In this document: positions 10,591-61,906 of the stretch, in pieces
How positions within the stretch are numbered: position 1 is the first letter of the stretch
Layout: every line of letters begins with the position of its first letter
IMG/VR virus record: IMGVR_UViG_3300015608_004971
Length of the DNA stretch: 64,000 nt
Source of the DNA: a virus
Taxonomy: Duplodnaviria > Caudoviricetes
Direction: 5' to 3' (one strand)
Translations under genes and position numbers: made by a program
The notes under the pieces: model-generated
What the model was told of the DNA's origin: nothing
Seen by the model: only the letters and a program-made list of their open reading frames with translations
Databases searched by the model: none

Positions 10591-10653
10591 TTGACAGCCA
10601 GCGCCAGCCGTGCTATCATGCTTCGAGCTTCACAGCGGCAACGATAAAGCCGC
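10591..10653 (+). promoter_or_regulatory. repeated sigma70 promoter plus leader hairpin, copy 1
   Basis: TTGACA-gccagcgccagccgtgc-TATCAT, then GCGGC-aacgataaa-GCCGC. Confidence 0.9.
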
Positions 10654-10676
10654 AGCAAGCAGCAAGGAATCAGCAA

Positions 10677-11072
10677 ATGAGCAGCCAAAACGAAACAATC
10701 CTTAAGCTCGTTGCCGAGCTTAAGGCATCAGCAATTGATGGCCTTTCCATTGATATTTCGGAAAAGCCGGACGGATCGGTTTCGGTCGTTTTTTGCCAGC
10801 CTTCGGCGGAAATCGATCTTGATCTGCCGACCGAAATTTGGGATAGTGATGCCAAAGTTTGGAAGAATAAAAACGGGCAGATTCACCGCGATGGTGATTT
10901 GCCAGCATTTGAAAGGGCCAACGGAGATAAATTTTATTATAAAGAAGGAAAGCTTCACCGCGACGGTGATCTTCCTGCTATTGAATATGCTTGCGGTGAT
11001 AAAGAGTATTGTAAAAATGGAAAGCTTCACCGCGATGGCGATAAGCCTGCCGTTGTATATATAGACAGATAA
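10677..11072 (+). CDS. HRDGDLPA-repeat protein (3 repeats, usual C-terminal cap missing)
   Basis: Conserved NETILKLVAELK N-domain, 24-aa repeats; SD AAGGA before ATG 10677. Confidence 0.9.
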   Translation: MSSQNETILKLVAELKASAIDGLSIDISEKPDGSVSVVFCQPSAEIDLDLPTEIWDSDAKVWKNKNGQIHRDGDLPAFERANGDKFYYKEGKLHRDGDLPAIEYACGDKEYCKNGKLHRDGDKPAVVYIDR

Positions 11073-11106
11073 CAATAAAGAATTTGATATAAAAGGACTT
11101 TATTAA

Positions 11107-11847
11107 ATGAATTTGATTATTGTAGATTTTGATGGAACACTTTGTAATAGCGATCTAAAGCCTCACAGACATAAAGGCGATTGGTGGGGTAATCTTGAAT
11201 CTTTAAAAAATATCCCTGAAATAAATGGTCCTCTTCTTCAAGAAATTGACGAATATAAACAATCTCTTTGCAAGATCGTTATTATGACAGGTCGAACAGA
11301 GATTTTTAATGATAGAATTGTAGAAATTCTTGAACATCATAATGTTTTAAAATCTTATGATTACGATGAGCTGATAACACAGCCATTGAAAACCTTTGTT
11401 AACACAAAGGCTTATAAAAAGGAAATGCTTAAGGCGCTTCTTCGTCAATATCCAGATGTTGAAACTGTTATTGCTTATGATGACAAAGATATGTTTAAAG
11501 AGCCTTACGAAGAAGTATGTAAAACATTCGGTGTAGCACTTGAATATAAGCACACACCAAATGCGTTTCCACAAAGTATGAAAAGAATTACTTTTGACAA
11601 GAACCAAAAAGATAAATTCTTTGAGTTCATTAAGGGAAACAACTCTATTCTTGACGAACTCGGACGTAAAGTTAAAGATGTTGTTTTTTGTGATCTTGAT
11701 ATAATGCAAGAACACAATATTCTTTCATCATCTGATAGAGATGGAAATTATCGTGTTGATTTATATGTAATTGATCTTATTGAGGACGAGAATATGTTCT
11801 CATTTTATTTAAATGACCACCCAACAATCGCATCTTGTGGATTTTAA
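11107..11847 (+). CDS. HAD-family phosphatase (RNA-repair type)
   Basis: DFDGT, MTGR, YDDK motifs; adjacent to a kinase. Confidence 0.8.
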   Translation: MNLIIVDFDGTLCNSDLKPHRHKGDWWGNLESLKNIPEINGPLLQEIDEYKQSLCKIVIMTGRTEIFNDRIVEILEHHNVLKSYDYDELITQPLKTFVNTKAYKKEMLKALLRQYPDVETVIAYDDKDMFKEPYEEVCKTFGVALEYKHTPNAFPQSMKRITFDKNQKDKFFEFIKGNNSILDELGRKVKDVVFCDLDIMQEHNILSSSDRDGNYRVDLYVIDLIEDENMFSFYLNDHPTIASCGF

Positions 11848-12396
11848 ATGTTAAAAAGAATCTTGACAGCAATCCGGCTACACAAACCGAAGGTTATTTT
11901 TATGCACGGACTTCCATGCAGTGGAAAGTCTACTTATGTTAGTAAACTTGTTGCAGTCAACAATAAACTTGTTGTGATTTCTTACGACGATGAAGTTCAA
12001 GAGATTGCAAAAAAGAATGGACTTGAATATAACGATCTCTTTAGAAGCTTGCTCGGAAAAGAATTAAGAAAAGAAGCTTCCAAAAGCCTAGAAGAAAAAA
12101 TTAATAAAAATATTAAAAAGTGTGAAGATATTGTGTTTGATTTAACAAATACATCATTCTTTGCAAGAAAACGAGCATTAAGTTATTTTGAAAACTCAAA
12201 ATATTTCAAAGAAATACACATAATGCCTTTTCTTGATAAACAAGAATTCATTGAAAGAGAAACGATCAGATATGAAGAACTTTTGAAATATGGAATAGAA
12301 AAATCAATAAGCGTATCAGTTTATGATAAATTTGCGAAAGATTATTCGGTTCCGACAGAAAAAGAGGGATTCAATAGAATTATTGAAATTAAATGA
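11848..12396 (+). CDS. P-loop polynucleotide kinase-like (AAA_33)
   Basis: GLPCSGKST, ISYD, DLTN. Confidence 0.85.
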   Translation: MLKRILTAIRLHKPKVIFMHGLPCSGKSTYVSKLVAVNNKLVVISYDDEVQEIAKKNGLEYNDLFRSLLGKELRKEASKSLEEKINKNIKKCEDIVFDLTNTSFFARKRALSYFENSKYFKEIHIMPFLDKQEFIERETIRYEELLKYGIEKSISVSVYDKFAKDYSVPTEKEGFNRIIEIK

Positions 12397-12560
12397 TTAC
12401 CTATAGCAATAGAGATGTTTATTTTTATAAAACAAAAATGTTTGGCTATATATGTGAGCGTTTTGATGGCCGATATAATAAAAGAGAGTTAATTGATACG
12501 CAAAAACATATTCTTGATATGCGTGAATTTGAAGATTCTTTCAAAAAGGATCATATATAA
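12393..12560 (+). CDS. RxDG mini-gene family member (55 aa, below track cutoff)
   Basis: Translated by hand: MITYSN...ERFDG...KKDHI-stop; ATGA overlap upstream, TAATG overlap downstream. Confidence 0.75.
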   Translation: MITYSNRDVYFYKTKMFGYICERFDGRYNKRELIDTQKHILDMREFEDSFKKDHI

Positions 12561-12808
12561 TGATATCTTATTGTCTTGCAAATGATTTTTATGATTATAA
12601 AAATTTCTTTTGGTATGATAAACGAAGTAATCATATCAGATTAGATGGAAACATACAAAATGGAATCCACGCTTCAGCCTCAACAGCTATGTTAACATTG
12701 CTTATTGAATTAAATGTCTATAATGGTAGTCTGCCTTCAGATTTTGAATTATCAAAAGCAATAATAATTGCAAATCATAGAATTTCATTTTATCAGGATT
12801 TTATTTGA
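12560..12808 (+). CDS. RxDG mini-gene family member
   Basis: MISY...RLDG...DFI-stop. Confidence 0.75.
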   Translation: MISYCLANDFYDYKNFFWYDKRSNHIRLDGNIQNGIHASASTAMLTLLIELNVYNGSLPSDFELSKAIIIANHRISFYQDFI

Positions 12809-12824
12809 AAAAGGATCATAATCT

Positions 12825-17546: not shown

Positions 17547-17573
17547 TATGGTGCTGGCTTTTGGCGCTGGCGT

Positions 17574-17638
17574 TTGACAGCCAGCGCCAGCCGTGCTATC
17601 ATGCTTCACGCAACACAGCGGCAGCACAATAAAGCCGC
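17574..17638 (+). promoter_or_regulatory. repeated sigma70 promoter plus leader hairpin, copy 2
   Basis: Identical TTGACA-17-TATCAT block; GCGGC...GCCGC hairpin. Confidence 0.9.
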
Positions 17639-17656
17639 AGCGATAAGGATCAGCAA

Positions 17657-18055
17657 ATGAGCAGCAGCAGCAACAAAAACGAAACAATCCTGAAGCTTGT
17701 TGCCGAGCTTAAGGAATCGGCAATTGACGGAATTTCAATTAACGTTTCGGAGAAGCCGGATGGATCGGTTTCTGTGGTTTTTCACCAATCTTCGACTGAA
17801 ATCGATCTTGATTTGCCAACAGAAATCGGTTGTTATGGTACTAAATATTGGAGAAACAAAAAGGGAAATCTTCATCGTGACGGCGATCTGCCTGCCGTTA
17901 TTTATGCTGATGGAACCAAATCTTATTATAAGAACGGAAATTGCCATCGCGAGGGCGGAAAGCCCGCAATGATCACAAAAAAACGATATGAATATTGGAT
18001 CGATGGAAAGCACATTTTGACTGTCAATCATAAGAATGGCGTTGTTGAGGTTTGA
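17657..18055 (+). CDS. HRDGDLPA-repeat protein (2 repeats)
   Basis: Conserved N-domain and C-cap YEYWIDGKHILTVNHKNGVVEV. Confidence 0.9.
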   Translation: MSSSSNKNETILKLVAELKESAIDGISINVSEKPDGSVSVVFHQSSTEIDLDLPTEIGCYGTKYWRNKKGNLHRDGDLPAVIYADGTKSYYKNGNCHREGGKPAMITKKRYEYWIDGKHILTVNHKNGVVEV

Positions 18056-21377: not shown

Positions 21378-21890
21378 ATGATTCTATGTATTGATGTTTA
21401 TTATGACGAACAAAATGACCTAAACAAAATAGGTTGTGTTCTTCTTAAAAACTTTGAAGATGAAAAGCCATATAAAACATATGAATTGTTTAAATATGGT
21501 GTTCATCCTTACATTTCTGGTGAATTTTATAAACGAGAAATGCCATGCATTCTTTATGCTTTAAATCATATTTATAATGATGGTGAAAAAGTCGACATTA
21601 TTATTGTTGATGGCTATTGCACGCTAAAATACGATCATATTGGTCTAGGCGAGCATCTTTTTCAAGAATTAAATGAGAATATTATTGTTATTGGTATTGC
21701 AAAAACCTTATATAAAGGTGCTGAATATGTTATGGCTAGGAAAGGTCTATATATTACATCATCTGGCATTCCTAAAGAAAAAGCTGCAGAATATATTGAG
21801 CTTATGCACGGTAAGCACAAAAATCCATCAATCTTAAAGATTGTTGATCACCTATCTAGAGGAATTTTTAATCCTAAATTTAAATATTAA
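21378..21890 (+). CDS. nfi: endonuclease V family
   Basis: IDVYY, PYISGEFYKREMP, VDGY, GLGEHL, IGIAK. Confidence 0.88.
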   Translation: MILCIDVYYDEQNDLNKIGCVLLKNFEDEKPYKTYELFKYGVHPYISGEFYKREMPCILYALNHIYNDGEKVDIIIVDGYCTLKYDHIGLGEHLFQELNENIIVIGIAKTLYKGAEYVMARKGLYITSSGIPKEKAAEYIELMHGKHKNPSILKIVDHLSRGIFNPKFKY

Positions 21891-21921: not shown

Positions 21922-21984
21922 TTGACAGCCAGCGCCAGCCGTGCTATCATGCTTCAAGCAACACAGCGGCAACGATAAAGCCGC
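21922..21984 (+). promoter_or_regulatory. repeated promoter plus leader hairpin, copy 3 (empty: no gene follows)
   Basis: Full promoter, hairpin and AAGGA, immediately followed by another promoter. Confidence 0.9.
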
Positions 21985-22014
21985 AGCAAGGAAAGCCCCA
22001 AGCGAAGAAGAGGC

Positions 22015-22043
22015 TTGACAGCCAGCGCCAGCCGTGCTATCAT
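22015..22043 (+). promoter_or_regulatory. repeated promoter, copy 4
   Basis: Identical TTGACA-17-TATCAT; leader hairpin GCAGC-aatcat-GCTGC. Confidence 0.9.
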
Positions 22044-22094
22044 GCTTCAAGCAACGCAGCAATCATGCTGCGCCGATACACGAGACAAGCAAAA

Positions 22095-22364
22095 ATGGAA
22101 ATCGAAAAAATCTCCTTTCCTAAAGTTAAAGATTTTATGCGGCATCATAATTTGATGCCCAAACTACAATTCAATGTCGTTTATTCGGGCTGGGATAGCG
22201 ATAATACTGGTTGGGTTTCTTACGATCGGGAAGGAAATAAAAAATATGTAATGACATGCTGTGGTGTTCCTTATTTTGAGGAAGAATCTAATGTTAGAAA
22301 TCTTATTCAAGATTATCTTTCTTGGATTAAAGAAACAGAAGAAGCTTTGAATTTTAAAATGTAA
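22095..22364 (+). CDS. hypothetical protein
   Basis: ATG 22095 downstream of promoter copy 4; the longer track ORF runs through promoter DNA. Confidence 0.7.
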   Translation: MEIEKISFPKVKDFMRHHNLMPKLQFNVVYSGWDSDNTGWVSYDREGNKKYVMTCCGVPYFEEESNVRNLIQDYLSWIKETEEALNFKM

Positions 22365-22370
22365 ATAAAC

Positions 22371-22447
22371 GGACGAATGGCTCGATTGGTCAAGGCAGCG
22401 GTCCTATAAACCGTCTTATATGGGTTCAAATCCCATTTCGTCCACCA
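22371..22447 (+). tRNA. tRNA with centred anticodon TAT (probable tRNA-Ile UAU), atypical C33
   Basis: Acceptor GGACGAA/TTCGTCC-A-CCA, anticodon arm GCGGT-CCTATAA-ACCGT, T arm ATGGG-TTCAAAT-CCCAT. Confidence 0.85.
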
Positions 22448-23022: not shown

Positions 23023-23619
23023 ATGAATGAATTGACTTTAAAAATTATTGCCGAGCTTAAGGCATTGGCCGTCGACGGCCTTTCCATTGACATTTCGGAG
23101 AAAACAGACGGATCGGTTTCGGTTGTTTTTCACCAATCTTCGGAAGAGATCGATCTTGATCCGCCGACAGAAATTAATTGTTTTGGCTCCAAATATTGGA
23201 AGGATAAAGACGGACTGCTCCACCGCGACGGTGATTTGCCTGCCGCTATTTATGCTGATGGTAGCAAATATTATTATAAGAACGGAAATTGCCATCGCGA
23301 CGGTGATTTGCCTGCCATTGAACATGCTGATGGCACCAAATGTTATTATAAGAACGGAAATTGCCATCGCGACGGTGATTTGCCTGCCATTGAACATGCT
23401 GATGGCACCAAATGTTATTATAAGAACGGAAAATGCCATCGTGACGGCGATTTGCCAGCAATTGAATATGCTAATGGCGAAAGAGATTATTATAAAAATG
23501 GCAAGCCTCACCGCGACGGCAATAAGCCTGCGATTATCAGAAAAAATCGATATGAATATTGCCTTGATGGAAAGCTTATTTTGATTGTGAAGCATAAGAA
23601 TGGCGTTGTCGAGATTTAA
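23023..23619 (+). CDS. HRDGDLPA-repeat protein (5 repeats; altered N-terminus, no promoter of its own)
   Basis: 3' half nearly identical to 50397..51008; contains a tandem 72-nt duplication. Confidence 0.9.
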   Translation: MNELTLKIIAELKALAVDGLSIDISEKTDGSVSVVFHQSSEEIDLDPPTEINCFGSKYWKDKDGLLHRDGDLPAAIYADGSKYYYKNGNCHRDGDLPAIEHADGTKCYYKNGNCHRDGDLPAIEHADGTKCYYKNGKCHRDGDLPAIEYANGERDYYKNGKPHRDGNKPAIIRKNRYEYCLDGKLILIVKHKNGVVEI

Positions 23620-23653: not shown

Positions 23654-23716
23654 TTGACAGCCAGCGCCAGCCGTGCTATCATGCTTCGAGCAACACAGCG
23701 GCAACGATAAAGCCGC
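23654..23716 (+). promoter_or_regulatory. repeated promoter plus leader hairpin, copy 5
   Basis: Identical block; lies upstream of 23756 and the MoxR gene. Confidence 0.9.
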
Positions 23717-23755
23717 AACAATGTAGCAAAATGCTGCGAAGAAGAGAGAGGAACA

Positions 23756-25518: not shown

Positions 25519-25599
25519 ATCGGCATGGTGGAATGGTAGACACAACGCACTTAAAATGCGTCGATTAATATCGTGCGAGTTCAAGTCTCGCTGCCGATA
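25519..25599 (+). tRNA. tRNA-Leu(TAA), CCA not encoded
   Basis: ATCGGCA/TGCCGAT-A acceptor, ACGCA-CTTAAAA-TGCGT, long variable arm, GCGAG-TTCAAGT-CTCGC. Confidence 0.93.
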
Positions 25600-26890
25600 C
25601 TAAAACGAAGGAAACGATTGTCATGAGACAATGCCCAAAATATGAAGATTATAGACTAGAAGATCTTCTTGTAAAAGAACATAAAAAAGATACAGAGATT
25701 TTAATCAAAAAAGGCAAAGAACACCCTTTCAATCAGGGTGAAATTTCTCTCTCATTAGAGCAACTAAAAGAGATTTATTTAATAGCCGAGAAGTATCATA
25801 GAAATGATAATCAAAAGATTGAGATCCGTCTTTATAACGGAGGATTTGCTTTTAAAATTTTAAGACATACAATTTCACATGAAATGAAATATCACAAAAG
25901 ATACGATGAAATTCTCTATCAAAAAGATATTTCCGAATGGCAAAAAGAAAAAGAAGCAGAGAATGCTCTCAAATGAAAGACGGAATCATATTCGCTAGAG
26001 AACATATTTTAATGGAACAGATTTTATCCATTATTAGACAAAAATATAAATATGAGCTCTTTATATGGCATTATTATATAATAGTGCCATATCGTCCACT
26101 ATCATTGTTAAACGACGAATTGCCAACATCAGCAATAAAATTATGAGAATAGATGATAAACTTGCAGTAACAGTTTATCCAGATGGTTGTTCAAAAACTT
26201 TCAGCCATTATACTGATGCAATTAAATATTTTTTACATACTCAAGGAATAAAAACAAATGAATGTTGAATATTTTTTAGTTCTTGTCGATAAACGAATGA
26301 CAGATCACCCAAATGAAAGAAAAGGACAAGCTGCTTTTAATTTATTGTGTTTTGATATTGGTCGGGACGATCTTGCTGATTTGGTCCGCTCTACAAAATA
26401 TGATCCATTTTTTGATAATGCAAGAATGGACGATTTCATTCATTTCCTTGTTGAAAAAAACTTCCTATTTCGTCAGTAATAGAATCTGCAACATGAATAT
26501 TATACAAAAATTATCAACACCTTATATTAGACAAGAAATTGTAAAGCGAGTAGATAAAGTTAATTATCTATCATTAGATGCTTCTAATATGAAAATTGCA
26601 CAAAATGTATCTTCTTGGAAGCGCAATTCGAAGCAAAAATTGAAAAACGCCATAAATGATTATGGTGTCTCTTCAGTCCAAGAATTTTTGGAATGTGGCG
26701 ATGAAACAGAATTGTTTTGCAAACCCAATAGTATTACAGAGAAATGTATTGTTCGTCATTTTGTAATTGCTGATTTGACTTTGGATTGTACCTGCATTAC
26801 AGACGAGACAGACCAAAATATTTTAGTTTTCATTTGGCATCAAGATTAATTAGAAATACTCACAGACATATATCGCAATGGAGTTAATTA

Positions 26891-28144
26891 ATGATTGTCA
26901 ATTGTAGAATTATGTCTATGCGCAGACATGGCAAAATTGCTTTTGCTCAATTTAAGGAATTTTCCAATCACAATAATACTGCTTCAATTACTCAAGCAGT
27001 TTTTATGAAGCAAAATCTTGAAGACTATGATTTGATTTTGTCTTCATTAAAGATTGGTTGTATAGTAACACTTAGGGGTGAAGAATATGTAACTTCTACA
27101 GGTGTTCTCTCTTTGAGCGTTGTGAAGTGCGATATAACTTACATTCCAAATGTTGGATTTCCAACAGAACATTTTGGGATTGAAAATGAAAATCTTAAAA
27201 GACGTCATAGGTTTCTAAGTTGTCTTTATAATGACAGTGTAAAGACAACTTTTTTGAAGAGATTTGAAATTATTAATAACATTAGACAATTTTTAATTTC
27301 AAATTCTTTCATTGAATTTGAAACTCCAATTATGTCTTCACATGCTTCAGGAGCTCTTGCAAAGCCTTTTGTTACACACTACAACGCATATGAAACAGAT
27401 TTTTATCTTAGAATTGCGCCAGAAACTTTTCTAAAGAGAATTTTGGCAGGTGGTTTTGATAACATTTTTGAAATTGGAAAAAACTTTCGTAATGAAGGAG
27501 TAGATCCATCTCATTTGCAAGAATTTACTGTTGTTGAATGGTATAGCGCTTTCAAAAATTATAAAGACAATCTTGAATTATTCAAGTCTATGTTAGACTT
27601 TTTGATTAAAGATAAAATTGTTACATTTGAAAATGTTCAACTTGATTTTTCTAATTGTCAAACTCTGACTTATAGAGAATGTTTTGAAAAGTATGCGCCA
27701 GATTTTGATCCATTTTGTAAAGAGAATAGTGAAAAATCTGTTGATCTTGTTTTCAAGACAAGAATTAGACCAAATATTGTACAGCCCACTTTTGTAATCG
27801 ATTATCCGTCTTTTATGTCTCCAATGGCTAAGAGATCTGATCAAGATGAAAATATTTGTGAGCAATGGCAATTTATAGTCAATGGATGGGAAATCGTTAA
27901 GTGTTACACTGAACTTGTTGATGCTACTCTTCAAAGACAGCTTCTTGAAGAGCAAATGCAACAAAAGATTAAAGCGAATAACGCAGATGATGAATTTATG
28001 GAATTAGAAGAAGACTTTCTATATACAATGGAATATGGAATTCCGCAATCCTCTGGCGTAGGCGTGGGTATCGATAGACTAGTTGCAATCTTGACGAACA
28101 ACTCATCTTTGAGAGATGTTGTATTTTTTCCTGCTGTTCTATGA
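26891..28144 (+). CDS. lysS: class II lysyl-tRNA synthetase (compact)
   Basis: RRHGKIAF OB fold, EFETP, GALAKPF.TH, YLRIAPE, FRNEG, H..EFT, YGIP...G.G.GIDRL. Confidence 0.92.
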   Translation: MIVNCRIMSMRRHGKIAFAQFKEFSNHNNTASITQAVFMKQNLEDYDLILSSLKIGCIVTLRGEEYVTSTGVLSLSVVKCDITYIPNVGFPTEHFGIENENLKRRHRFLSCLYNDSVKTTFLKRFEIINNIRQFLISNSFIEFETPIMSSHASGALAKPFVTHYNAYETDFYLRIAPETFLKRILAGGFDNIFEIGKNFRNEGVDPSHLQEFTVVEWYSAFKNYKDNLELFKSMLDFLIKDKIVTFENVQLDFSNCQTLTYRECFEKYAPDFDPFCKENSEKSVDLVFKTRIRPNIVQPTFVIDYPSFMSPMAKRSDQDENICEQWQFIVNGWEIVKCYTELVDATLQRQLLEEQMQQKIKANNADDEFMELEEDFLYTMEYGIPQSSGVGVGIDRLVAILTNNSSLRDVVFFPAVL

Positions 28145-34643: not shown

Positions 34644-34706
34644 TTGACAGCCAGCGCCAGCCGTGCTATCATGCTTTGAGCAACACAGCGGCAACGATAA
34701 AGCCGC
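34644..34706 (+). promoter_or_regulatory. repeated promoter plus leader hairpin, copy 6
   Basis: Identical block. Confidence 0.9.
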
Positions 34707-34722
34707 AGCAAGGAATCAGCAA

Positions 34723-38289: not shown

Positions 38290-38291
38290 TA

Positions 38292-41913: not shown

Positions 41914-41931
41914 CAGACTTTAATCCATAAA

Positions 41932-42150: not shown

Positions 42151-42153
42151 ATT

Positions 42154-42393: not shown

Positions 42394-42394
42394 T
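42367..42394 (+). promoter_or_regulatory. sigma70 promoter for the CCA-adding enzyme gene
   Basis: TTGACA-16-TATAAT with the same cgtgc before the -10. Confidence 0.8.
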
Positions 42395-42437
42395 CCCACG
42401 CACTCGCAAGGCTCAGAGTCGCCAAAGCGCAAGACCA

Positions 42438-43541: not shown

Positions 43542-43694
43542 AAAGCAAGCATTTATTACACCAAAATTACTTCAAAATCTAAATTTGTATTACAAACGTG
43601 TAATCAAATTTCATGGAAATCCAATCAGAACTATTCCTAAAATTGAAATTGAAGATTAAAAACATATAATATAAAGCTTAAAGGATATTATTTT

Positions 43695-43940
43695 ATGATT
43701 TGCTATCGAAATAATAAAACTATTGATTTATATTTTAATGAAATTGCAGCTTCTACACCAAATACTTCAAAATATACATCAAAGGAAAGACATGATGGCA
43801 TAATTTCAAGAATTAGAGGTGTAAAGAAACAAACAAATCTATATAATGCAGGCGCACTCTATTTTACAAACTATAATAGAGAAGATTATTTAGCTGTCAA
43901 ATTCTTGAATCGTAAGAAGAGACAAAATGATATTATTTAA
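43695..43940 (+). CDS. RxDG mini-gene family member
   Basis: MICY...RHDG...NDII-stop. Confidence 0.8.
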   Translation: MICYRNNKTIDLYFNEIAASTPNTSKYTSKERHDGIISRIRGVKKQTNLYNAGALYFTNYNREDYLAVKFLNRKKRQNDII

Positions 43941-44133
43941 AAACCACAGAAGTAAAAAAGCCACACAATTTCTTTGTGATTATGATAGACTTAAACCAGA
44001 TTTTTTACCAAAAAGAAAAGATGGATATTTATATCATAATCATGGTATATATAATCTAGGTATAAGTGCTTCGACACTGTTTCGAGTTTTTAATAAAACG
44101 GCATTTCAATCAAACAAAAGTGATATTATTTAA
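43927..44133 (+). CDS. RxDG mini-gene family member
   Basis: MILFK...RKDG...DII-stop; TGATATTATTTAAA at both ends. Confidence 0.8.
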   Translation: MILFKNHRSKKATQFLCDYDRLKPDFLPKRKDGYLYHNHGIYNLGISASTLFRVFNKTAFQSNKSDII

Positions 44134-44145
44134 AGGGTTATCGCA

Positions 44146-45567
44146 ATGAGTAACATTAAAAAATTTAATCTACTGACAACAACGGATAGTTATAAGTATT
44201 CTCACGTATCGCAATATCCAGAAGGCACCACAAAGATTTTTTCATATTTGGAAAGTCGCGGTGGCGAGTTTGACAAAACTGTCTTTTTTGGTTTGCAATA
44301 TTACCTTAAAGAGTTTCTGGAAGGAAAGGTTATTGAAACCTGGATGATTGATGAGATTGAAGAATTTGCTTCGATCCATTTTGGAAGCGAAAATGTCTTC
44401 AATAGAAGTGTATGGGATTATATTGTTGAAAAACATGACGGTCATCTTCCTTTGAAGATTCGTGCTGTACCGGAAGGTTCTGTTGTTCCAACAAAAAATG
44501 TACTTCTCACAATCGAGAATACAGATCCAAATTGTTTTTGGCTAACAAATTTTGTTGAAACTCTTTTGCTTAAGGTCTGGTATCCAATTACCACGGCAAC
44601 TCTATCTCGTGAGTGTAAAAAGTTGATCAACAAATATTTGCTGGAAACGGCAGATAATAATGATGGATTGCTTTTTAAGCTTCATGATTTTGGCTGTCGC
44701 GGTGCCTCTTCAAACGAAAGTGCTGCAATTGGCGGCGCAAGCCATTTGCTTAATTTTCTTGGAAGCGATACAGTTCCTGCAATCTTTATGCTTCGAGATT
44801 ATTATAATGCAGGAAAGTGCTGCGCATTTTCTATTCCTGCAACAGAACATTCGACAATCACTTCTTGGAAACGCTCAGGTGAATGCGAAGCATATAGAAA
44901 TCTTTTGAATAAATTTCCAGAAGGTCTTGTTGCATGTGTTTCGGATAGTTACAATATTTATGATGCATGTCAAAATATGTGGGGTAACGAGCTTAAAGAA
45001 ATTGTGATGAACAGAAATGGCACGCTTGTAATTAGACCAGATTCTGGCGATCCTATTTTTGCTCTGCCAAAGCTTTTGACCATTCTAGGTAATTCTTTCG
45101 GCTTTTCTCTAAATTCAAAAGGCTATAAGCTGCTAGATCCACACATTAGGGTTATTTGGGGCGATGGAATCAATCTTCGTTCTATTTCTCAAATTCTTGA
45201 GTCAATCAAAGAATCTGGCTGGTCAACAGATAATGTTGCATTTGGAATGGGCGGGGCACTCCTTCAACAAACAAATCGTGATACAAATAAATTTGCAATT
45301 AAATGCTCTTTTGCTGCCGTAAATGGTGAGTCTGTGGATGTATTTAAAGATCCAATTGATGATCACGGAAAGAAGAGTAAAACTGGTAGAATCTCTCTTT
45401 ATGAGGATTGCAACACAGGAAAGATTTTTTCGGCTCTTATGCCAAATGAAAACGACTCTATTCTTCTTTGTCGGGATCGCAAAGAGCTTCTCAAGACCGT
45501 CTTTTATAACGGAAAGATTCTTGAAAATCAAAATCTTGAAGAAATTCGAGAAAGAGCAAAGCTATAA
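44146..45567 (+). CDS. nadV: nicotinamide phosphoribosyltransferase
   Basis: TDSYKYSH, FFGLQY, VPEG, LHDFG.RG, PATEHS, VSDSY, IRPDSG, GDG, FGMGG. Confidence 0.96.
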   Translation: MSNIKKFNLLTTTDSYKYSHVSQYPEGTTKIFSYLESRGGEFDKTVFFGLQYYLKEFLEGKVIETWMIDEIEEFASIHFGSENVFNRSVWDYIVEKHDGHLPLKIRAVPEGSVVPTKNVLLTIENTDPNCFWLTNFVETLLLKVWYPITTATLSRECKKLINKYLLETADNNDGLLFKLHDFGCRGASSNESAAIGGASHLLNFLGSDTVPAIFMLRDYYNAGKCCAFSIPATEHSTITSWKRSGECEAYRNLLNKFPEGLVACVSDSYNIYDACQNMWGNELKEIVMNRNGTLVIRPDSGDPIFALPKLLTILGNSFGFSLNSKGYKLLDPHIRVIWGDGINLRSISQILESIKESGWSTDNVAFGMGGALLQQTNRDTNKFAIKCSFAAVNGESVDVFKDPIDDHGKKSKTGRISLYEDCNTGKIFSALMPNENDSILLCRDRKELLKTVFYNGKILENQNLEEIRERAKL

Positions 45568-45611: not shown

Positions 45612-46136
45612 ATGAATGATTCAATTCTGAAGCTCGTCAACGAGCTTAAAGCTTCGGCAAATAACGGCCTTTCCATCGACATTTCGGAAAAGCCGGACGG
45701 ATCTGTTTCGGTTGTTTTTCGCCAGCCTTTGGCAGAAAACGATCTTGATCCGCCGACAGAAATCGATTGTTTTGGCAACAAATACTGGAAAAATAAAAAA
45801 GGAAAGTTTCATCGCGACGGCGATTTGCCTGCCGTTATTTATGTCGATGGAAACAAAGATTATTATAAAGAAGGAAAACTTCACCGCGACGGTGATAAGC
45901 CTGCCATTGAATTTGGCAATGGCAGCAAAGTATATTATAAGAACGGAAAGCTTCATCGTGACGGTGATTTGCCTGCCTTTGAACATGCTGATGGCGATAG
46001 AAAATTTTATAAAGATGGAAAACTTCATCGCGAGGGCAATAAGCCAGCAATTATCACAAAAGATAAGTATGAATATTGGATTGATGGAAAACACATTTTG
46101 ACCGTCAAGCATAATGATGGTGTTGTTGAGATTTAA
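45612..46136 (+). CDS. HRDGDLPA-repeat protein (4 repeats; no promoter block)
   Basis: Family N-domain and C-cap. Confidence 0.9.
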   Translation: MNDSILKLVNELKASANNGLSIDISEKPDGSVSVVFRQPLAENDLDPPTEIDCFGNKYWKNKKGKFHRDGDLPAVIYVDGNKDYYKEGKLHRDGDKPAIEFGNGSKVYYKNGKLHRDGDLPAFEHADGDRKFYKDGKLHREGNKPAIITKDKYEYWIDGKHILTVKHNDGVVEI

Positions 46137-48600: not shown

Positions 48601-49248
48601 ATGAACAACAATAAAAACATGAATTTGGATAGAATTAAATATCCAAGAACATATCATGTTCCTTGGTCGCCAAGTCCATCAAAAGATGATAAAGTTCTTA
48701 AGGGCATGTCATCATTTGAAAAACAACAAGTTATCGTCACCATGAAAATGGATGGCGAAAATACGACGTTATATCGCGATTATATTCATGCCAGATCCTT
48801 AGATTATGCATCACATGAATCGAGAACTTGGGTAAAAACTTTTTGGTCTCAAGTATGTGGAGATATACCAGAGAATTTTAGAATTTGTGGTGAAAATCTA
48901 TATGCAAAGCATTCGATCCATTATGATAATCTGCCAACATATTTTATGGGTTTTTCAATTTGGAATAAGTTAAATTGCTTAAACTGGGATGAAACGCTTG
49001 AATATTTTGAATTATTAGGAATACAGCATGTGCCTGTATTGTATGATGGAATTTTCGATATTGAAAAAATTAAAAATTTAAAAATTGATTTTGAAAAGGA
49101 TGAAGGATATGTTATAAGACTCAAACAAAGCTTTGAGTATAAAGATTTTAAAAAATCTGTAGCGAAATATGTTAGAAAAAACCATGTAACTTCTGATGTG
49201 CATTGGAAGTTCAAAAAGCTTGAAAAAAACACATTAAGGAGAATTTAA
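48601..49248 (+). CDS. RNA ligase family (KYPRT type)
   Basis: KYPRTYH, KMDGEN, CGENL, EGYVIR, KYVR. Confidence 0.88.
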   Translation: MNNNKNMNLDRIKYPRTYHVPWSPSPSKDDKVLKGMSSFEKQQVIVTMKMDGENTTLYRDYIHARSLDYASHESRTWVKTFWSQVCGDIPENFRICGENLYAKHSIHYDNLPTYFMGFSIWNKLNCLNWDETLEYFELLGIQHVPVLYDGIFDIEKIKNLKIDFEKDEGYVIRLKQSFEYKDFKKSVAKYVRKNHVTSDVHWKFKKLEKNTLRRI

Positions 49249-49669: not shown

Positions 49670-50315
49670 TTCTTTATTTTTTTGGTGTTAAAATGCCTCA
49701 CTTTGGTCATCTTTGGCCTGATCTAAAATCTCATCTAAAGGAACAAGAAGATTATTTGGATGATATGGAATACGAGATTGAACAACTTCTCTATGAAAGA
49801 GGGGCTAAACACATTAAAAAATTTAATTCTTCAATTGATAAGGTAGTCAGGCATATTGCCGAAGAAGACTATAATAAAATGACTTCATATATGGATATTA
49901 AAGAAATGAGTTTTTATGGCTTACCTGAGATTTCGCCTTCTTCGCTAAAAATAAAAAAACCAATAATATTGAGAGAAAGCATCCTTCTTTTTCAAATTCA
50001 TCTGAAATGGTTCAGAGATTGAAAAAGAAAAAAGAACAAAAAGATATTCAAAAAGAAAAGGAAAAAGTCATTTTTGATTTGTATGGATGCCACGGAAATG
50101 AATGTAACGGTGAATGTTTAAATATGGATTGCGAAGTAAAAACCAAGCCGATTTCCTTGAAAAATAAAAAATCAATCTCCCTTTATAGGGATGATGTTTC
50201 CTTCTTTTTGAGGCTAAAGATTTCTTTTTTGACATTCTTATCAAAAATCTTTAAAGCTTAAATAAAGTTTAATGTTATTTTGGCTAATACCGTGGTGGCC
50301 GCTATCGGCTGGCGC

Positions 50316-50378
50316 TTGACAGCCAGCGCCAGCCGTGCTATCATGCTTCAAGCAACGCAGCGGCAACCTTAAAGCCGC
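50316..50378 (+). promoter_or_regulatory. repeated promoter plus leader hairpin, copy 7
   Basis: Identical block. Confidence 0.9.
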
Positions 50379-50396
50379 AGCAATAAGGAACAACAA

Positions 50397-51008
50397 ATGA
50401 GCAGCAGCAACAAAAACGAAACAATCCTGAAGCTCGTTGCCGAGCTTAAGGAATCGGAAATTGACGGAATTTCAATTAACATTTCGGAGAGGCCGGACGG
50501 ATCGGTTTCGGTTGTTTTCCGACAGCCTTCGGAAGAGATCGATCTTGATCCGCCGACAGAAATTAATTGTTTTGGCTCCAAATATTGGAAGGATAAAGAA
50601 GGAAAGCTTCACCGCGACGGCGATCTGCCTGCCGTTATTTATGCTGATGGCAGCAAATTTTATTATAAGAACGGAAATTGCCATCGCGACGGTGATTTGC
50701 CTGCCGCTATTTATGCTGATGGTAGCAAATGTTATTATAAGAACGGAAAATGCCATCGTGACGGCGATTTGCCAGCAATTGAATATGCTAATGGCGAAAG
50801 AGATTATTATAAAAATGGCAAGCCTCACCGCGACGGCGATTTGCCAGCAATTGAATATGCTAATGGCGAAAGAGATTATTATAAAAATGGCAAGCCTCAC
50901 CGCGACGGCAATAAGCCTGCGATTATCAGAAAAAATCGATATGAATATTGCCTTGATGGAAAGCTTATTTTGATTGTGAAGCATAAGAATGGCGTTGTTG
51001 AAATTTAA
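50397..51008 (+). CDS. HRDGDLPA-repeat protein (5 repeats)
   Basis: Tandem duplication of the AIEYANGERDYYKNGKP unit. Confidence 0.9.
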   Translation: MSSSNKNETILKLVAELKESEIDGISINISERPDGSVSVVFRQPSEEIDLDPPTEINCFGSKYWKDKEGKLHRDGDLPAVIYADGSKFYYKNGNCHRDGDLPAAIYADGSKCYYKNGKCHRDGDLPAIEYANGERDYYKNGKPHRDGDLPAIEYANGERDYYKNGKPHRDGNKPAIIRKNRYEYCLDGKLILIVKHKNGVVEI

Positions 51009-53343: not shown

Positions 53344-53398
53344 TAAAACTTAATAATAACGCTGAATAAGCACGGCTGGCGCTGGTTTATGTCGCACC

Positions 53399-53465
53399 TT
53401 GACAGCCAGCGCCAGCCGTGCTATTATGCTTCAAGCAACGCAGGCAGCGGCAACGATAAAGCCGC
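53399..53465 (+). promoter_or_regulatory. repeated promoter plus leader hairpin, copy 8
   Basis: TTGACA, same spacer, TATTAT. Confidence 0.9.
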
Positions 53466-53481
53466 AGCAAGGAATCAACAA

Positions 53482-54159
53482 ATGAGCAACAAAAACGAAA
53501 CAATTTTGAAGCTCGTTGCCGAGCTTAAGGCATCGGCAATTGATGGCCTTTCCATCGACATTTCGGAGAAGCCGGACGGATCTGTTTCTGTTATCTTTCG
53601 CCAGCCTTCGGCAGAAAACGATCTTGATCTGCCGACCGAAATTGATTGCAATGGCCATAAACTTTGGAAGAATAAAGACGGGCAGATTCACCGCGACGGT
53701 GATTTGCCAGCCATTGAATATGCCGATGGGGAAAAGAGATATTATAAAGACGGACAGCTTCATCGCGACGGTGATCTTCCTGCCGTTGAATCCACTAATG
53801 GCCAAAAAGAGTATTATAAAAATGGAAAGCGCCATCGCGACGGTGATTTGCCTGCCATTGAACATGCTGATGGCGTCAAATATTATTATAAAAACGGCCA
53901 TATCCATCGCGATGACGATCTGCCTGCTGTTGAATTGATTGATGGAACCAAAAAGTTCCTTAAAGATGGAAAGTTGCATCGCGAGGGCGATAAGCCTGCC
54001 ATTATATGGGCAGATGGCAGCAAAGTTTATTTTAAAAATGGCAAATATCATCGTGACGGAGATCTGCCTGCCGTTATCAAAAAAGATAAATATGAATATT
54101 GGGTCGACGGCAAGCACATTTTAACCGTCAATCATAATGATGGCGTTATCGAGATTTAA
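53482..54159 (+). CDS. HRDGDLPA-repeat protein (6 repeats)
   Basis: ATG 53482 after AAGGA; 5' part nearly identical to 61436. Confidence 0.9.
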   Translation: MSNKNETILKLVAELKASAIDGLSIDISEKPDGSVSVIFRQPSAENDLDLPTEIDCNGHKLWKNKDGQIHRDGDLPAIEYADGEKRYYKDGQLHRDGDLPAVESTNGQKEYYKNGKRHRDGDLPAIEHADGVKYYYKNGHIHRDDDLPAVELIDGTKKFLKDGKLHREGDKPAIIWADGSKVYFKNGKYHRDGDLPAVIKKDKYEYWVDGKHILTVNHNDGVIEI

Positions 54160-57001: not shown

Positions 57002-57518
57002 AATGGTTTTTAATATTGTCACAACTTTTTATCTGGTGCCTTATGAAAAATCTTCCTGATATGCTCAAAAGAAATACAAAATTTGTATATACAAAATATA
57101 AATATGAAAATAAGATATTTTTAATAAAATTTAGAGGTTTAAGTTGGTTTAATTTTGAGACAAATATATTCTTGATGAGTCTTTTTAATTTTATCTTATT
57201 TGCCCTAACAGGCTCAACAATAAGTCTCATAACTGCATTCTTTTTAATGATAATATCGCTTATTGCGGAAAACACTTCAAGAAAAACAATGTCAACAACA
57301 GAGTCAAGCAAATATCACAAAAATTTTGATATTGGCGATATTGTACATTTTAACGACCTCGGGCATTTTATGATTTTGACAAAGACGAAAGTAAAAAATG
57401 GAATGGAATTTTCTGTCATTCATCTTGAAAGTGAAAATTCTCCTTATAAAATTTTTTATGGTATGGACGCTTTTAAAAATTATATTAATTCTAGCATTTC
57501 TGATAATGCTGAAGAATG

Positions 57519-57653
57519 ATAATTAAATTAAGCCACCTAGCTTGCCCTGTGGCTGGCGCTTCCAATAAAGCCGTGCATCGCATGGCTAAGCGACAGAATG
57601 CCAGCCGCAGGCCAAGCCAGACGCTTGCAAAGCCACGGCAAGCGTGCTAATAT
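57519..57653 (+). repeat. 129-bp structured repeat, copy B, ending in promoter TTGCAA-17-TAATAT
   Basis: Matches 37432..37560; -35 at 57625, -10 at 57648. Confidence 0.9.
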
Positions 57654-58902: not shown

Positions 58903-58961
58903 TTGACAGGCTGCGTCGGCCATGCTATTATTCGGTTGTGACGCAGCCACTTTATTGCTGC
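58903..58961 (+). promoter_or_regulatory. variant sigma70 promoter with leader hairpin
   Basis: TTGACA-17-TATTAT, then GCAGC-cactttatt-GCTGC. Confidence 0.8.
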
Positions 58962-58977
58962 AACGAGTTCAAAAAGA

Positions 58978-60368: not shown

Positions 60369-60370
60369 CA

Positions 60371-60601
60371 ATGATATCATTTAAAATAATCGAGTTATTT
60401 GGAGACAAACCATACTTCTGGGGAAAGAATCAGTCGCGTGCTTTCTTGTCTCATAGAGGCGATGGTTTTGCAAAATCTGATTCATGCCATAGCCAGGCAA
60501 TAATATATGGAAGTGTTTATATAGCTAAGCATAAACAAATAAAAGGTTACTTGAAGAAATTTAATTTAAATACAAAAAATATTAAAAATGATATATTATA
60601 A
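60371..60601 (+). CDS. RxDG mini-gene family member
   Basis: MISFK...HRGDG...DIL-stop. Confidence 0.8.
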   Translation: MISFKIIELFGDKPYFWGKNQSRAFLSHRGDGFAKSDSCHSQAIIYGSVYIAKHKQIKGYLKKFNLNTKNIKNDIL

Positions 60602-60791
60602 AATTTTTTATAAAAAGTTCATTTGGAACACAAACTTTTCTAATCTAGAGAGATTAGATGGAAAAAGTACAAAAATTCATTATTCCATAGACGACTTTTA
60701 TTGCGGCTTTAATCTTTCTTTTTATAAAGAATATCTAAAAAATTCTCATCGATTATATAAAATTAATAATCAACATAATGATAAGATATAG
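60588..60791 (+). CDS. RxDG mini-gene family member
   Basis: MIYYK...RLDG...DKI-stop. Confidence 0.8.
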   Translation: MIYYKIFYKKFIWNTNFSNLERLDGKSTKIHYSIDDFYCGFNLSFYKEYLKNSHRLYKINNQHNDKI

Positions 60792-60999
60792 AATAATTAA
60801 AAATAGTTTTATGTATTTTTATCAAGATCCGAAACTGGGCGTATGGGGTTTTTTTCAAAGAAAAGATGGCATTGCATATGATGACGATCAGTTTGAAGAA
60901 AAATATTTTTATTTTAATCGTACGACAACATTAGACAGATTATGTATAATAAATTATATGAATTACAATAATAATATTTTTCTAGAAGATACGATATGA
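60778..60999 (+). CDS. RxDG mini-gene family member
   Basis: MIRY...RKDG...DTI-stop. Confidence 0.8.
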   Translation: MIRYRIIKNSFMYFYQDPKLGVWGFFQRKDGIAYDDDQFEEKYFYFNRTTTLDRLCIINYMNYNNNIFLEDTI

Positions 61000-61211
61000 T
61001 TTTTTTTATGTATAAAAAAGGCTTGCACCATGGGTGTAATAATTATTGCATTTATTATCATTTTAAGCGGACTTATAACGCACAAAGATTTGATGGCTTT
61101 TGTAGTTCAATATATAAAACATATATAGGTTCATGTCATAAAGTTCTCTCACGCGAAAAAATGAAAACAATGAATCCAAATTTTAGAAATAAAAAAGATG
61201 ATATCATATGA
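60996..61211 (+). CDS. RxDG mini-gene family member
   Basis: MIFF...RFDG...DII-stop. Confidence 0.8.
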   Translation: MIFFMYKKGLHHGCNNYCIYYHFKRTYNAQRFDGFCSSIYKTYIGSCHKVLSREKMKTMNPNFRNKKDDII

Positions 61212-61357
61212 TTATATTTTATTCTCTTTATAAATTTCAATATTGGCGAACAACAGAAAATTATTTTCCAAATCGAAACGATGGCAACGAAAGAAGCCCA
61301 TGTAGAAGAGACCAGAGTTACTCATCAATTTCGCAACCATTATTGGCTTGCGCTTGA
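61208..61357 (+). pseudogene. truncated RxDG mini-gene (49 aa)
   Basis: MIIFY...NRNDG...; its stop TGA lies inside the TTGACA of promoter copy 9. Confidence 0.65.
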
Positions 61358-61420
61358 CAGCCAGCGCCAGCCGTGCTATCATGCTTCAAGCAACGCAGGC
61401 AGCGGCAACGATAAAGCCGC
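61354..61420 (+). promoter_or_regulatory. repeated promoter plus leader hairpin, copy 9
   Basis: Identical block. Confidence 0.9.
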
Positions 61421-61435
61421 AGCAAGGATCAGCAA

Positions 61436-61906
61436 ATGAGCAGCAGCAGCAACAAAAACGAAACAATCCTGAAGCTTGTTGCCGAGCTTAAGGCATCGGC
61501 AATTGATGGCCTTTCCATCGACATTTCGGAGAAGCCGGACGGATCTGTTTCTGTGGTTTTTCGCCAGCCTTCGGCAGAAAACGATCTTGATCTGCCGACC
61601 GAAATTGATTGCAATGGCCATAAACTTTGGAAGAATAAAGACGGGCAGATTCACCGCGACGGTGATTTGCCTGCCGTTATTTATGCTGATGGAACCAAAT
61701 CTTATTATAAGAACGGAAATTGCCATCGTGACGGTGATTTGCCTGCCATTGAATGGATTGATGGAACCAAAAAGTTCTTTAAAGATGGAAAGTTGCATCG
61801 CGACAATGGAAAGCCTGCCGTTATTTTCAAAAATAAATATGAATATTGGCTCGATGGAAAGCGCATTTTGACCGTCAAGCATAAGGATGGCATTGTTGAG
61901 ATTTAA
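61436..61906 (+). CDS. HRDGDLPA-repeat protein (3 repeats)
   Basis: Family N-domain and C-cap. Confidence 0.9.
   Translation: MSSSSNKNETILKLVAELKASAIDGLSIDISEKPDGSVSVVFRQPSAENDLDLPTEIDCNGHKLWKNKDGQIHRDGDLPAVIYADGTKSYYKNGNCHRDGDLPAIEWIDGTKKFFKDGKLHRDNGKPAVIFKNKYEYWLDGKRILTVKHKDGIVEI

What the first reader, a model, noticed from the sequence alone, without database searches (positions are those of the whole stretch)
10591..61906. Dispersed GC-rich module: identical strong promoter, leader hairpin and repeat-protein gene
Seen: TTGACA-GCCAGCGCCAGCCGTGC-TAT(C/T)AT occurs nine times with an invariant 17-bp spacer (10591, 17574, 21922, 22015, 23654, 34644, 50316, 53399, 61354). Six copies continue through a shared leader and SD into a HRDGDLPA-repeat gene with a near-identical ~55-aa N-domain. 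Three further family genes lack the promoter. Flanks differ each time and the modules are GC-rich islands. Established: sigma70 spacers are normally only weakly sequence-constrained, so identity implies recent copying, gene conversion or an operator. Inference: a spreading early-expression module that supplies promoters to downstream operons and serves as a recombination hub. No transposase, terminal inverted repeats or target duplication are evident.
Basis: partly seen in the sequence, partly recalled or inferred. Interest (0 to 1): 0.85.

Follow-up and report, generated by a model that had tools for sequence, protein, structure and literature searches.

The report
Repeated phage early-promoter and gene cassette
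An uncultivated AT-rich phage carries about ten copies of one strong GC-rich promoter, most of them fused to a fast-evolving family of repeat-protein genes. The copies are kept alike by recombination and seem to act as crossover points, much like the promoter cassettes (PeSLs) already known in T4-type phages.

Summary
There are nine copies of a 29-nt consensus sigma-70-type promoter (eight identical, one with a C/T change in the -10). A tenth, diverged copy lies at 58903. All are on the + strand of an uncultivated large phage with 31% GC.

- **Layout:** six copies drive a paralogous gene family (acidic ~50-aa N-domain, 2-7 MORN-like 24-aa repeats). Three family genes lack the promoter. Four copies without a family gene (21922, 22015, 23654, 58903) lie upstream of other genes.
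- **Conservation:** homology starts at the -35. The promoter core is far more conserved than the leader or synonymous sites.
- **Relatives:** a diverged syntenic relative has a cassette at the same two sites (one gene barely alignable), with different spacers and 44% protein identity. Flanking core genes are 69-86% identical and window paralogs 71-86%. So the family evolves in concert; no transposition is seen.
- **Recombination:** paralogs are mosaics. Metagenomic contigs show hybrid junctions between cassettes and between family genes, though repeat-induced mis-assembly is not excluded.
- **Timing:** cassette-proximal genes avoid TTA/ATA, the codons the phage's own tRNAs read, which fits early expression.

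Best reading: a PeSL-like early-promoter cassette fused to a multigene family. It is a new variant of a known kind, of moderate interest. Earlier scan notes concern only this genome.

The parts
10591..10676 (+). Cassette 1: 29-nt promoter (10591-10619) plus leader and ribosome-binding site
   Evidence: Exact pattern match; aligned with the other copies. An orthologous cassette is present in relative L015 at 9903.
10677..11072 (+). Family gene, 131 aa: N-domain plus 3 repeats, lacking the C-terminal cap of the other members
   Evidence: Translation and alignment.
17574..17656 (+). Cassette 2: promoter plus leader. The upstream arm 17562-17571 pairs with spacer 17580-17589, so the -35 sits in the hairpin loop.
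   Evidence: fold z = -4.5. An orthologous cassette is present in L015 at 17614.
17657..18055 (+). Family gene, 132 aa
21922..22014 (+). Cassette 3: promoter plus leader with no gene. Just past the AAGGA ribosome-binding site the leader joins a 23-nt flank that elsewhere follows gene 23023, which looks like the scar of a deleted or relocated family gene.
22015..22094 (+). Cassette 4: promoter with a different leader hairpin, upstream of an 89-aa gene (22095-22364) and tRNA-Ile
23023..23619 (+). Family gene, 198 aa, without its own promoter. Its 3' half is identical to gene 50397 in 48-nt windows. Identity with the 135-kb relative ends at 23316, inside a repeat.
23654..23755 (+). Cassette 5: promoter plus leader upstream of a 125-aa gene and a MoxR-type AAA ATPase gene. 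It shares a 23-nt upstream flank with cassette 4.
34644..34722 (+). Cassette 6: promoter plus leader
   Evidence: It is the recombination partner in contig L005.
34723..35184 (+). Family gene, 153 aa
35211..35489 (+). Family gene, 92 aa: repeats only, with no N-domain and no promoter of its own. It lies directly after gene 34723.
45612..46136 (+). Family gene, 174 aa, with no promoter. About 25 nt of leader-like sequence remains upstream.
50316..50396 (+). Cassette 7: promoter plus leader. A perfect 11-nt upstream arm (50306-50316) pairs with spacer 50325-50335.
50397..51008 (+). Family gene, 203 aa (5 repeats)
53369..53481 (+). Cassette 8 (TATTAT -10 variant) with its upstream arm. The 17-nt perfect inverted repeat 53369-53385 / 53406-53422 encloses the -35.
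   Evidence: fold -48.1 kcal/mol, z = -7.9.
53482..54159 (+). Family gene, 225 aa (6-7 repeats)
58903..58977 (+). Diverged tenth cassette: 6 mismatches, still with a GC-rich spacer. An inverted repeat (58909-58917 / 58940-58948) flanks the -10. It lies upstream of a 95-aa gene.
61354..61435 (+). Cassette 9: promoter plus leader
61436..61906 (+). Family gene, 156 aa, and a mosaic: the start resembles 17657, the N-domain 53482 and the end 45612. From 61816 its 3' end matches the sequence that follows the 23316 junction in the relative.
   Evidence: Structure model pLDDT 85.7.

Best explanation
**What it is.** The module is an early-expression cassette of an uncultivated large AT-rich phage. It has three parts:
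1. A near-consensus promoter for the host's primary sigma factor: TTGACA, a 17-nt spacer, a TG-type extended -10, and TATCAT.
2. A leader of about 55 nt with a ribosome-binding site.
3. In most copies, a member of a fast-evolving family of proteins with an acidic N-domain and MORN-like beta-hairpin repeats.

Copies without a family gene sit in front of other gene blocks.

**How it behaves.** The copies are old and positionally stable. They are kept alike within a genome by homologous recombination or gene conversion, together with selection on the promoter core. The same dispersed homology produces hybrid genes, changes in repeat number, and deletions or replacements of the accessory genes lying between copies. 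In this it works like the promoter-early stem-loop cassettes (PeSLs) of T4-type phages.

**Shown versus inferred.** Shown: the copies, their boundaries, differential conservation, mosaicism, orthologous positions with non-proportional divergence, and the codon bias of downstream genes. Inferred: promoter activity, early timing, the reality of the recombinant genomes, and the function of the proteins (probably binding host or defence proteins).
For: **Promoter quality and copy number.** Nine copies (eight identical, one with a C/T change) plus one diverged copy were found, with 0 expected by chance. The match is 11 of 12 hexamer positions with TG before the -10.

**Conservation pattern.**
- The spacer is invariant at 17 of 17 positions. 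Only 26 of 50 third-codon positions and 37 of 63 leader columns are invariant (Fisher p = 2e-4 and 8e-4).
- Among the six gene-linked copies, 0 of 40 upstream columns are invariant.
- Invariance ends about 4 nt after the -10, so it matches the promoter core.

**Concerted evolution.**
- Relative L015 has the cassette at the two orthologous sites, with a clear family gene at one; its spacers differ from the window's and from each other.
- Core orthologues are 69-86% identical. Family orthologues are 44% identical or barely alignable. Window paralogues are 71-86% identical.

**Recombination.**
- Paralogs are mosaics: 48-of-48-nt identity switches partner along each gene.
- Contig L005 joins the 10591 cassette, including its private 7-nt leader insertion, to the 34644-type gene within a 62-nt identical stretch.
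- Contigs from four assemblies and two assemblers are identical to the window up to 23316, then continue with the 61816-type gene end and different downstream genes.
- 21922-22043 looks like a cassette whose gene was removed.

**Early expression.** Non-family genes within 1.3 kb downstream of a cassette have 1.5 TTA+ATA codons per 100, against 5.25 elsewhere (p = 1.7e-4). The phage encodes the tRNAs that read these two codons.

**Region between copies.** It encodes accessory functions.

**PeSL properties.** Taken from PMC2839356 and PMC4122927.
Against: - There is no transcription data. Promoter use and timing rest on consensus matching and codon bias only.
- The recombinant junctions come from metagenome assemblies. 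Another paralogue of the same genome (P0007, outside the window) shares a long identical stretch with gene 23023. A repeat-induced skip in assembly could therefore mimic the 23316 junction. The 62-nt identity at the L005 junction exceeds common k-mer sizes.
- Only 3 of 10 copies have a strong upstream hairpin. Those hairpins overlap the -35 rather than precede it, and no U-tract follows. The terminator half of a PeSL is thus not established.
- Selection on ordinary sigma-70 contacts does not explain why the 5' six bases of the spacer are also invariant within the genome.
Confidence: 0.62

Rival explanations
1. The invariant promoter, and especially its spacer, is an operator. A phage-encoded factor would bind the conserved GC-rich element just upstream of the -10 and switch all cassettes on or off together. 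The identity would then be kept by co-evolution with that factor. Candidates include the conserved 97-aa sigma-70 region-4-like protein at 2553-2846. This reading could hold alongside the main explanation.
For: Invariance coincides with the promoter core, spacer included, and exceeds that of neighbouring sites. The 3' 11 nt of the spacer plus the -10 and the next 3 nt are conserved in relatives L015 and L016 although the rest differs. A small region-4-like protein scores above the Pfam cut-off (27.6 against 24.1 bits) and is 81% conserved in L015.
Against: The spacer holds a tandem hexamer, not a palindrome. Part of the conserved stretch is explained by an extended -10 (RTGn) element. The two copies in L015 differ from each other. 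The upstream complementary arms sit in different registers, which suits hairpins rather than a fixed protein site. No binding data exist.
Confidence: 0.2
2. This is an ordinary tandem or dispersed paralog family that happens to keep its own strong promoter, with no special role in genome plasticity. The 'recombinant' contigs would be assembly artefacts at repeats.
For: Cassettes sit at orthologous sites in L015. There are no inverted repeats, target duplications or transposase. The repeats are long enough to confuse assemblers.
Against: Four copies carry no family gene, and one scar lacks its gene. Mosaic paralogs occur within a single contig. Paralogs are more alike than orthologues. The same 23316 junction appears in four assemblies from two assemblers, including a 135-kb contig.
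Confidence: 0.15
3. The module is an autonomous or mobilised genetic element (MITE-like, homing or transposing) that is currently inserting at new sites.
For: Copies are dispersed with unrelated upstream flanks, and the module is GC-rich in an AT-rich genome.
Against: No terminal inverted repeats or target duplications. No transposase or homing endonuclease lies next to the copies. Two of two testable sites are occupied in a relative whose core proteins are only 69-86% identical. GC enrichment extends to unrelated downstream genes.
Confidence: 0.04

Closest known systems
PeSLs (promoter-early stem-loop cassettes) of T4-type phages RB49/phi1, T4/PST and KVP40/nt-1 (PMC2839356, PMC4122927)
   Same: Both are many dispersed intergenic copies of a strong sigma-70-like promoter with 17-nt spacing, ending in a ribosome-binding site and start codon. 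Both cluster among accessory genes, sit at insertion, deletion or replacement junctions between close relatives, and are proposed to act as portable homology for modular shuffling.
   Different: Here the promoter is identical in sequence, including its GC-rich spacer. Most copies are fused to one gene family, whose coding repeats also serve as crossover sites. The stem-loop is present in only some copies and encloses the -35, using the spacer as its 3' arm. No terminator U-tract is seen. The phage has no close relative in the phage collection and is not shown to be T4-like. Mini-circles are untested.
Identical phage-polymerase promoters of T7-group phages (own knowledge)
   Same: A promoter word of more than 20 nt is repeated almost without change around one phage genome and defines a temporal class.
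   Different: T7 promoters are read by the phage's own single-subunit polymerase and lack -35 and -10 hexamers. This one is a textbook host primary-sigma promoter.
Multigene families of repeat proteins in large DNA viruses, such as poxvirus ankyrin families and 'genomic accordions' or African swine fever virus MGFs (own knowledge)
   Same: Both involve many paralogous repeat-protein genes, variation in copy and repeat number, fast divergence between lineages, and a presumed role in host interaction.
   Different: Those are eukaryotic viruses. Here each copy also carries the same bacterial promoter, and homogenisation by recombination is evident.
MORN / MORN_2 (YwqK-type, COG2849) repeat proteins
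   Same: The protein has a roughly 24-residue beta-hairpin repeat with a G-x-x-H-R-D-G-type turn. The best structural matches are MORN1, junctophilin and SET7/9. Some homologues are named YwqK-like by JGI.
   Different: Scores fall below the Pfam gathering threshold. There is no sequence match to any solved structure. The acidic N-domain and C-terminal cap are specific to this phage group. No toxin partner is seen.

Membership tests
PeSL (promoter-early stem-loop cassette) | Strong sigma-70-like promoter, -35 and -10 hexamers 17 nt apart | tested here: met
   TTGACA / 17 nt / TATCAT, matching 11 of 12 positions, with TG before the -10.
PeSL (promoter-early stem-loop cassette) | Stem-loop just upstream of the promoter that terminates upstream transcription | tested here: inconclusive
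   Strong hairpins occur at 17574, 50316 and 53399 only (z = -4.5, -2.4, -7.9). They enclose the -35 instead of preceding it, and no U-tract follows. Relative L016 has the same layout with its own compensating arm. Terminator activity is untestable here.
PeSL (promoter-early stem-loop cassette) | Ribosome-binding site and start codon of the downstream gene at the 3' end | tested here: met
   AAGGA-type site 7-9 nt before the ATG in the six gene-linked copies.
PeSL (promoter-early stem-loop cassette) | Many dispersed intergenic copies concentrated among accessory (hyperplastic-region) genes | tested here: met
   Ten copies lie in 51 kb of NAD-salvage, RNA-repair, MoxR/VWA and small unknown genes.
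PeSL (promoter-early stem-loop cassette) | Located at insertion, deletion or replacement junctions between closely related genomes | tested here: met
   L005 shows a crossover between cassettes 10591 and 34644. The 135-kb relative and three short contigs break at 23316 inside a family gene and resume with the 61816-type end. Caveat: mis-assembly at repeats is not excluded.
PeSL (promoter-early stem-loop cassette) | Host genome is a T4-type myovirus | not testable with these tools
   The window holds no structural or replication hallmark genes. There is no DNA match in the phage collection, and GroEL is at most 33% identical to any phage.
PeSL (promoter-early stem-loop cassette) | Recombination between neighbouring copies yields mini-circles | not testable with these tools
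   This needs inverse PCR on infected cells.
MORN / MORN_2 repeat proteins | Sequence match above the Pfam gathering score | tested here: not met
   MORN_2 scores 17-19.8 bits against a cut-off of 29.6.
MORN / MORN_2 repeat proteins | Stacked beta-hairpin repeat fold like solved MORN proteins | tested here: inconclusive
   The model (pLDDT 85.7) is built of beta-hairpin repeats. The top PDB hits are MORN1, junctophilin and SET7/9 but are weak (E = 0.06, TM 0.33). The Atlas structural neighbours include a MORN_2 cluster.
Transposable or homing element | Terminal inverted repeats, target-site duplication, transposase or homing nuclease, variable sites among relatives | tested here: not met
   The longest left/right matches are 6-10 nt and inconsistent. 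No such enzyme lies next to the copies. The same two sites are occupied in L015.

The most novel reading that the evidence does not exclude
The ~20-nt element conserved across the phage group is the 3' spacer half, the -10 and the next three bases. It would be the recognition site of a phage-encoded transcription factor, possibly the conserved small sigma-region-4-like protein. That factor would time the expression of a rapidly diversifying set of MORN-like proteins that neutralise host defence or toxin proteins. The hairpins that embed the -35 would make each cassette a combined transcript-end and promoter insulator, a compact overlapping design not described for PeSLs.
Probability: 0.12. Interest if true: 0.7.

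Novelty: new variant of a known kind. Interest (0 to 1): 0.42.

Why it matters
PeSL-type regulatory cassettes have so far been described only in T4-type phages. Finding a functionally similar system in an unrelated, uncultivated phage lineage would suggest that portable promoter homology is a general route to modular shuffling in large phages. Here the system is fused to a concertedly evolving repeat-protein family, and natural recombinants appear to exist.

It also offers a clean natural case of a sigma-70 spacer under sequence constraint. In addition, it flags a family of early, fast-evolving viral MORN-like proteins as candidates for host-takeover or anti-defence functions.

Tried and rejected
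**Searches that found nothing useful**
- DNA searches of the phage collection, IMG/VR and JGI metagenome contigs found neither the promoter nor the region. A protein-based metagenome scan gave only one remote repeat hit.
- No whole genome is held for the window, and records behind the loci could not be searched. The rest of the 198,888-bp contig, which holds at least one more cassette-gene pair (P0007), could therefore not be read.
- A genome-collection scan for the conserved promoter half gave three ordinary-looking promoters in Clostridia MAGs. That is at most a weak hint about the host.
- Rfam found only the two tRNAs.

**Ideas tested and dropped**
- Leader hairpin as a conserved RNA structure: RNAalifold over 13 leaders found no shared structure and no covariation. 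Single-sequence z-scores were only -1 to -2.7.
- N-domain as a DNA-binding autoregulator: rejected because the domain is acidic, with net charge -4.5 to -8.4.
- Transposon or MITE: rejected.
- P0064 context (L007-L009) proved to be an unrelated element.
- Pfam, NCBIfam, PHROGs and PDB sequence searches give the family no name.

Full report
**Observation**

The 29-nt word is TTGACA, a 17-nt GC-rich spacer, then TATCAT. It occurs at the nine stated + strand positions. Eight copies are identical and 53399 has one C-to-T change in the -10. No match is expected in shuffles. A looser scan adds a tenth copy at 58903 with six changes and a spacer that is still GC-rich. No other partial copies exist.

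The window is 31% GC with all genes on the + strand. It encodes GroEL, DNA and RNA ligases, NAMPT, a MoxR-type ATPase, a class II aminoacyl-tRNA-synthetase-like protein, a CCA-adding-type enzyme and two tRNAs. It is therefore part of a large phage. The contig is 198,888 bp long. It has no DNA relative in the phage collection or IMG/VR.

**Anatomy**

- Self-comparison shows that the promoter plus about 45 nt of leader is 91-100% identical between copies. The coding parts are only 70-89% identical.
- Among the six gene-linked copies, no column of the 40 nt upstream is invariant, so homology begins at the -35.
- 28 of 29 promoter columns are invariant. All 17 spacer columns are invariant, against 37 of 63 leader columns and 26 of 50 third-codon positions in the N-domain (Fisher p = 8e-4 and 2e-4).
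- Variation resumes about 5 nt after the -10. The invariant block therefore coincides with the promoter core. That points to selection on promoter function rather than to conversion tracts with chance ends.
- The promoter has TG before the -10, an extended -10.

Nine family genes lie at 10677, 17657, 23023, 34723, 35211, 45612, 50397, 53482 and 61436. They encode:
- an acidic N-domain of about 50 residues (pI about 4.2);
- two to seven 24-residue repeats;
- a conserved C-terminal cap.

An AlphaFold model (pLDDT 85.7) shows an N-terminal helix and two strands followed by stacked beta-hairpins. Its best PDB neighbours are MORN proteins, but weakly. Pfam MORN_2 scores stay below threshold. Atlas neighbours are viral proteins of unknown function.

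**Stem-loops**

Three copies (17574, 50316, 53399) have an upstream arm complementary to the invariant spacer. The arms sit in three different registers, and each hairpin holds the -35 in its loop. At 53399 the stem has 17 perfect pairs (-48 kcal/mol, z = -7.9). Relative L016 has a different spacer and a matching upstream arm of its own. That argues the hairpin is selected. No U-tract follows, so terminator function is unproven.

The small leader hairpin is simply inherited. It shows no covariation across 13 leaders.

**Relatives**

A 135,466-bp ENA contig (L001, L010, L013) is 100% identical to window 677-23316. Identity ends inside a repeat of gene 23023. The contig then continues with the sequence found at window 61816-61908, the end of gene 61436, with one or two changes. 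After that come a repeat-only family gene and small ORFs absent from the window. The same junction occurs in three short contigs from other samples, built with another assembler.

Contig L012 has the end of gene 61436 followed by that same repeat-only gene rather than the window's 61945 gene.

Contig L005, found in two samples, equals window 10178 through cassette 10591, including its private 7-nt leader insertion. It then switches to the 34644-type gene within a 62-nt identical stretch.

Caveat: protein P0007 lies on the window's contig but outside the window. It combines a 53399-type leader, a 23023-type middle and the 135-kb contig's 3' end. A long exact repeat therefore exists that could mislead assemblers. 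The two contig lengths differ by 63,422 bp. That fits either a real deletion between two family genes or a skipped loop in assembly.

**Concerted evolution**

This evidence does not depend on assembly. A more distant syntenic relative (L015, 35% GC) carries a cassette at the sites orthologous to 10591 and 17574. A clear family gene follows only the first.
- Core proteins are 69-86% identical between the two phages. The family orthologue at the first site is 44% identical, and the one at the second is barely alignable.
- The L015 spacers differ from the window's at 6 or more positions and from each other. Only the 3' 11 nt of the spacer, the -10 and the next 3 nt are shared with L016 and the window.
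- Within the window, paralogs are 71-86% identical and the promoters are identical.
- Paralogs are also mosaics: the nearest paralog changes along each gene, with stretches of 48-of-48-nt identity.
- Positions 21922-22043 look like a cassette whose gene was excised. The leader is joined, just past the AAGGA site, to the 23-nt flank that elsewhere follows gene 23023 and precedes promoter 23654.

**Expression timing (inferred)**

Non-family genes within 1.3 kb downstream of a cassette use TTA plus ATA at a median of 1.5 per 100 codons, against 5.25 for other genes (p = 1.7e-4). They also have raised GC3. The phage's two tRNAs read exactly these codons. This fits transcription of cassette-proximal genes before the phage tRNAs accumulate. 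It also explains why the 'GC-rich islands' extend beyond the family genes.

**Comparison with known systems**

PeSLs of T4-type phages are strong sigma-70-like promoters with an upstream terminator stem-loop and a ribosome-binding site. They are dispersed in hyperplastic regions and found at indel and replacement junctions between close relatives.

The present cassettes share the promoter, the ribosome-binding site, the distribution and (with the caveat above) the junction association.

They differ in five ways:
- they are sequence-identical, including a GC-rich spacer;
- most are fused to one gene family whose repeats also recombine;
- the hairpin occurs in only some copies and overlaps the -35;
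- the hairpin lacks a U-tract;
- the phage is not shown to be T4-like.

There is no sign of transposition.

**Verdict**

'Spreading' is not supported: the copies are old, positionally fixed and homogenised. This is a new variant of a known kind of phage regulatory cassette, of moderate interest. The unexplained residue is the within-genome invariance of the whole spacer, together with the ~20-nt element conserved across relatives. These leave room for a dedicated factor.

Noticed in passing
window 37425-37560 and 57512-57647: A second dispersed GC-rich repeat, 136 nt and 97.8% identical. It folds very stably (-60.8 kcal/mol, z = -6.0) and contains the reverse complement of part of the promoter spacer. 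The 57512 copy runs into a promoter-like -10 and the 37425 copy does not. It has no Rfam match. It may be a small RNA, a terminator or an insulator.
   Followed up: partly
window 2553-2846: A 97-aa protein with a sigma-70 region-4 helix-turn-helix, scoring 27.6 bits against a Pfam cut-off of 24.1. It is 81% conserved in relative L015. It is a candidate phage transcription regulator.
   Followed up: partly
window 22371-22447 and 25519-25600: The phage tRNA-Ile(UAU) and tRNA-Leu(UAA) read ATA and TTA. Cassette-proximal genes avoid exactly these two codons (median 1.5 against 5.25 per 100 codons, p = 1.7e-4).
   Followed up: yes
window 21378-21890: An endonuclease V-like gene lies directly upstream of the tandem cassettes at 21922 and 22015. 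[quoted passage not shown] This is a lead only, and the family's relation to YwqK is weak.
   Followed up: partly
window 4457-4485 and 42367-42394: Two other perfect-TTGACA promoters with GC-rich spacers (65% and 56% GC) lie upstream of groEL and of a CCA-adding/poly(A)-polymerase-like gene. The groEL promoter in L015 also has a GC-rich but different spacer. GC-rich spacers therefore seem to be a lineage habit.
   Followed up: partly
window 26891-28144; 40361-45567; 29640-30503 and 48601-49248: This is an accessory gene set. It includes a class II (Asp/Lys/Asn-type) tRNA-synthetase-like gene, NAD salvage genes (a cytidylyltransferase+NUDIX protein and NAMPT), a CCA-adding-type enzyme, and two further RNA-ligase-domain genes beside the 436-aa RNA ligase at 13105.
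   Followed up: partly
window 38290-38989: Tandem paralogous small ORFs, with about 68% DNA identity between neighbouring units. They form part of arrays of 60-110-aa genes.
   Followed up: no
L010 13500-16500 versus L011 3500-6100: Two near relatives differ in which small ORFs are present in an array downstream of the repeat-only family gene, yet no promoter cassette lies nearby. Some other mechanism also shuffles the mini-genes.
   Followed up: no
P0005 versus window 23023-23619: A metagenomic allele of gene 23023 has exactly one 24-aa repeat fewer (174 against 198 aa), showing repeat-number variation in the population.
   Followed up: partly
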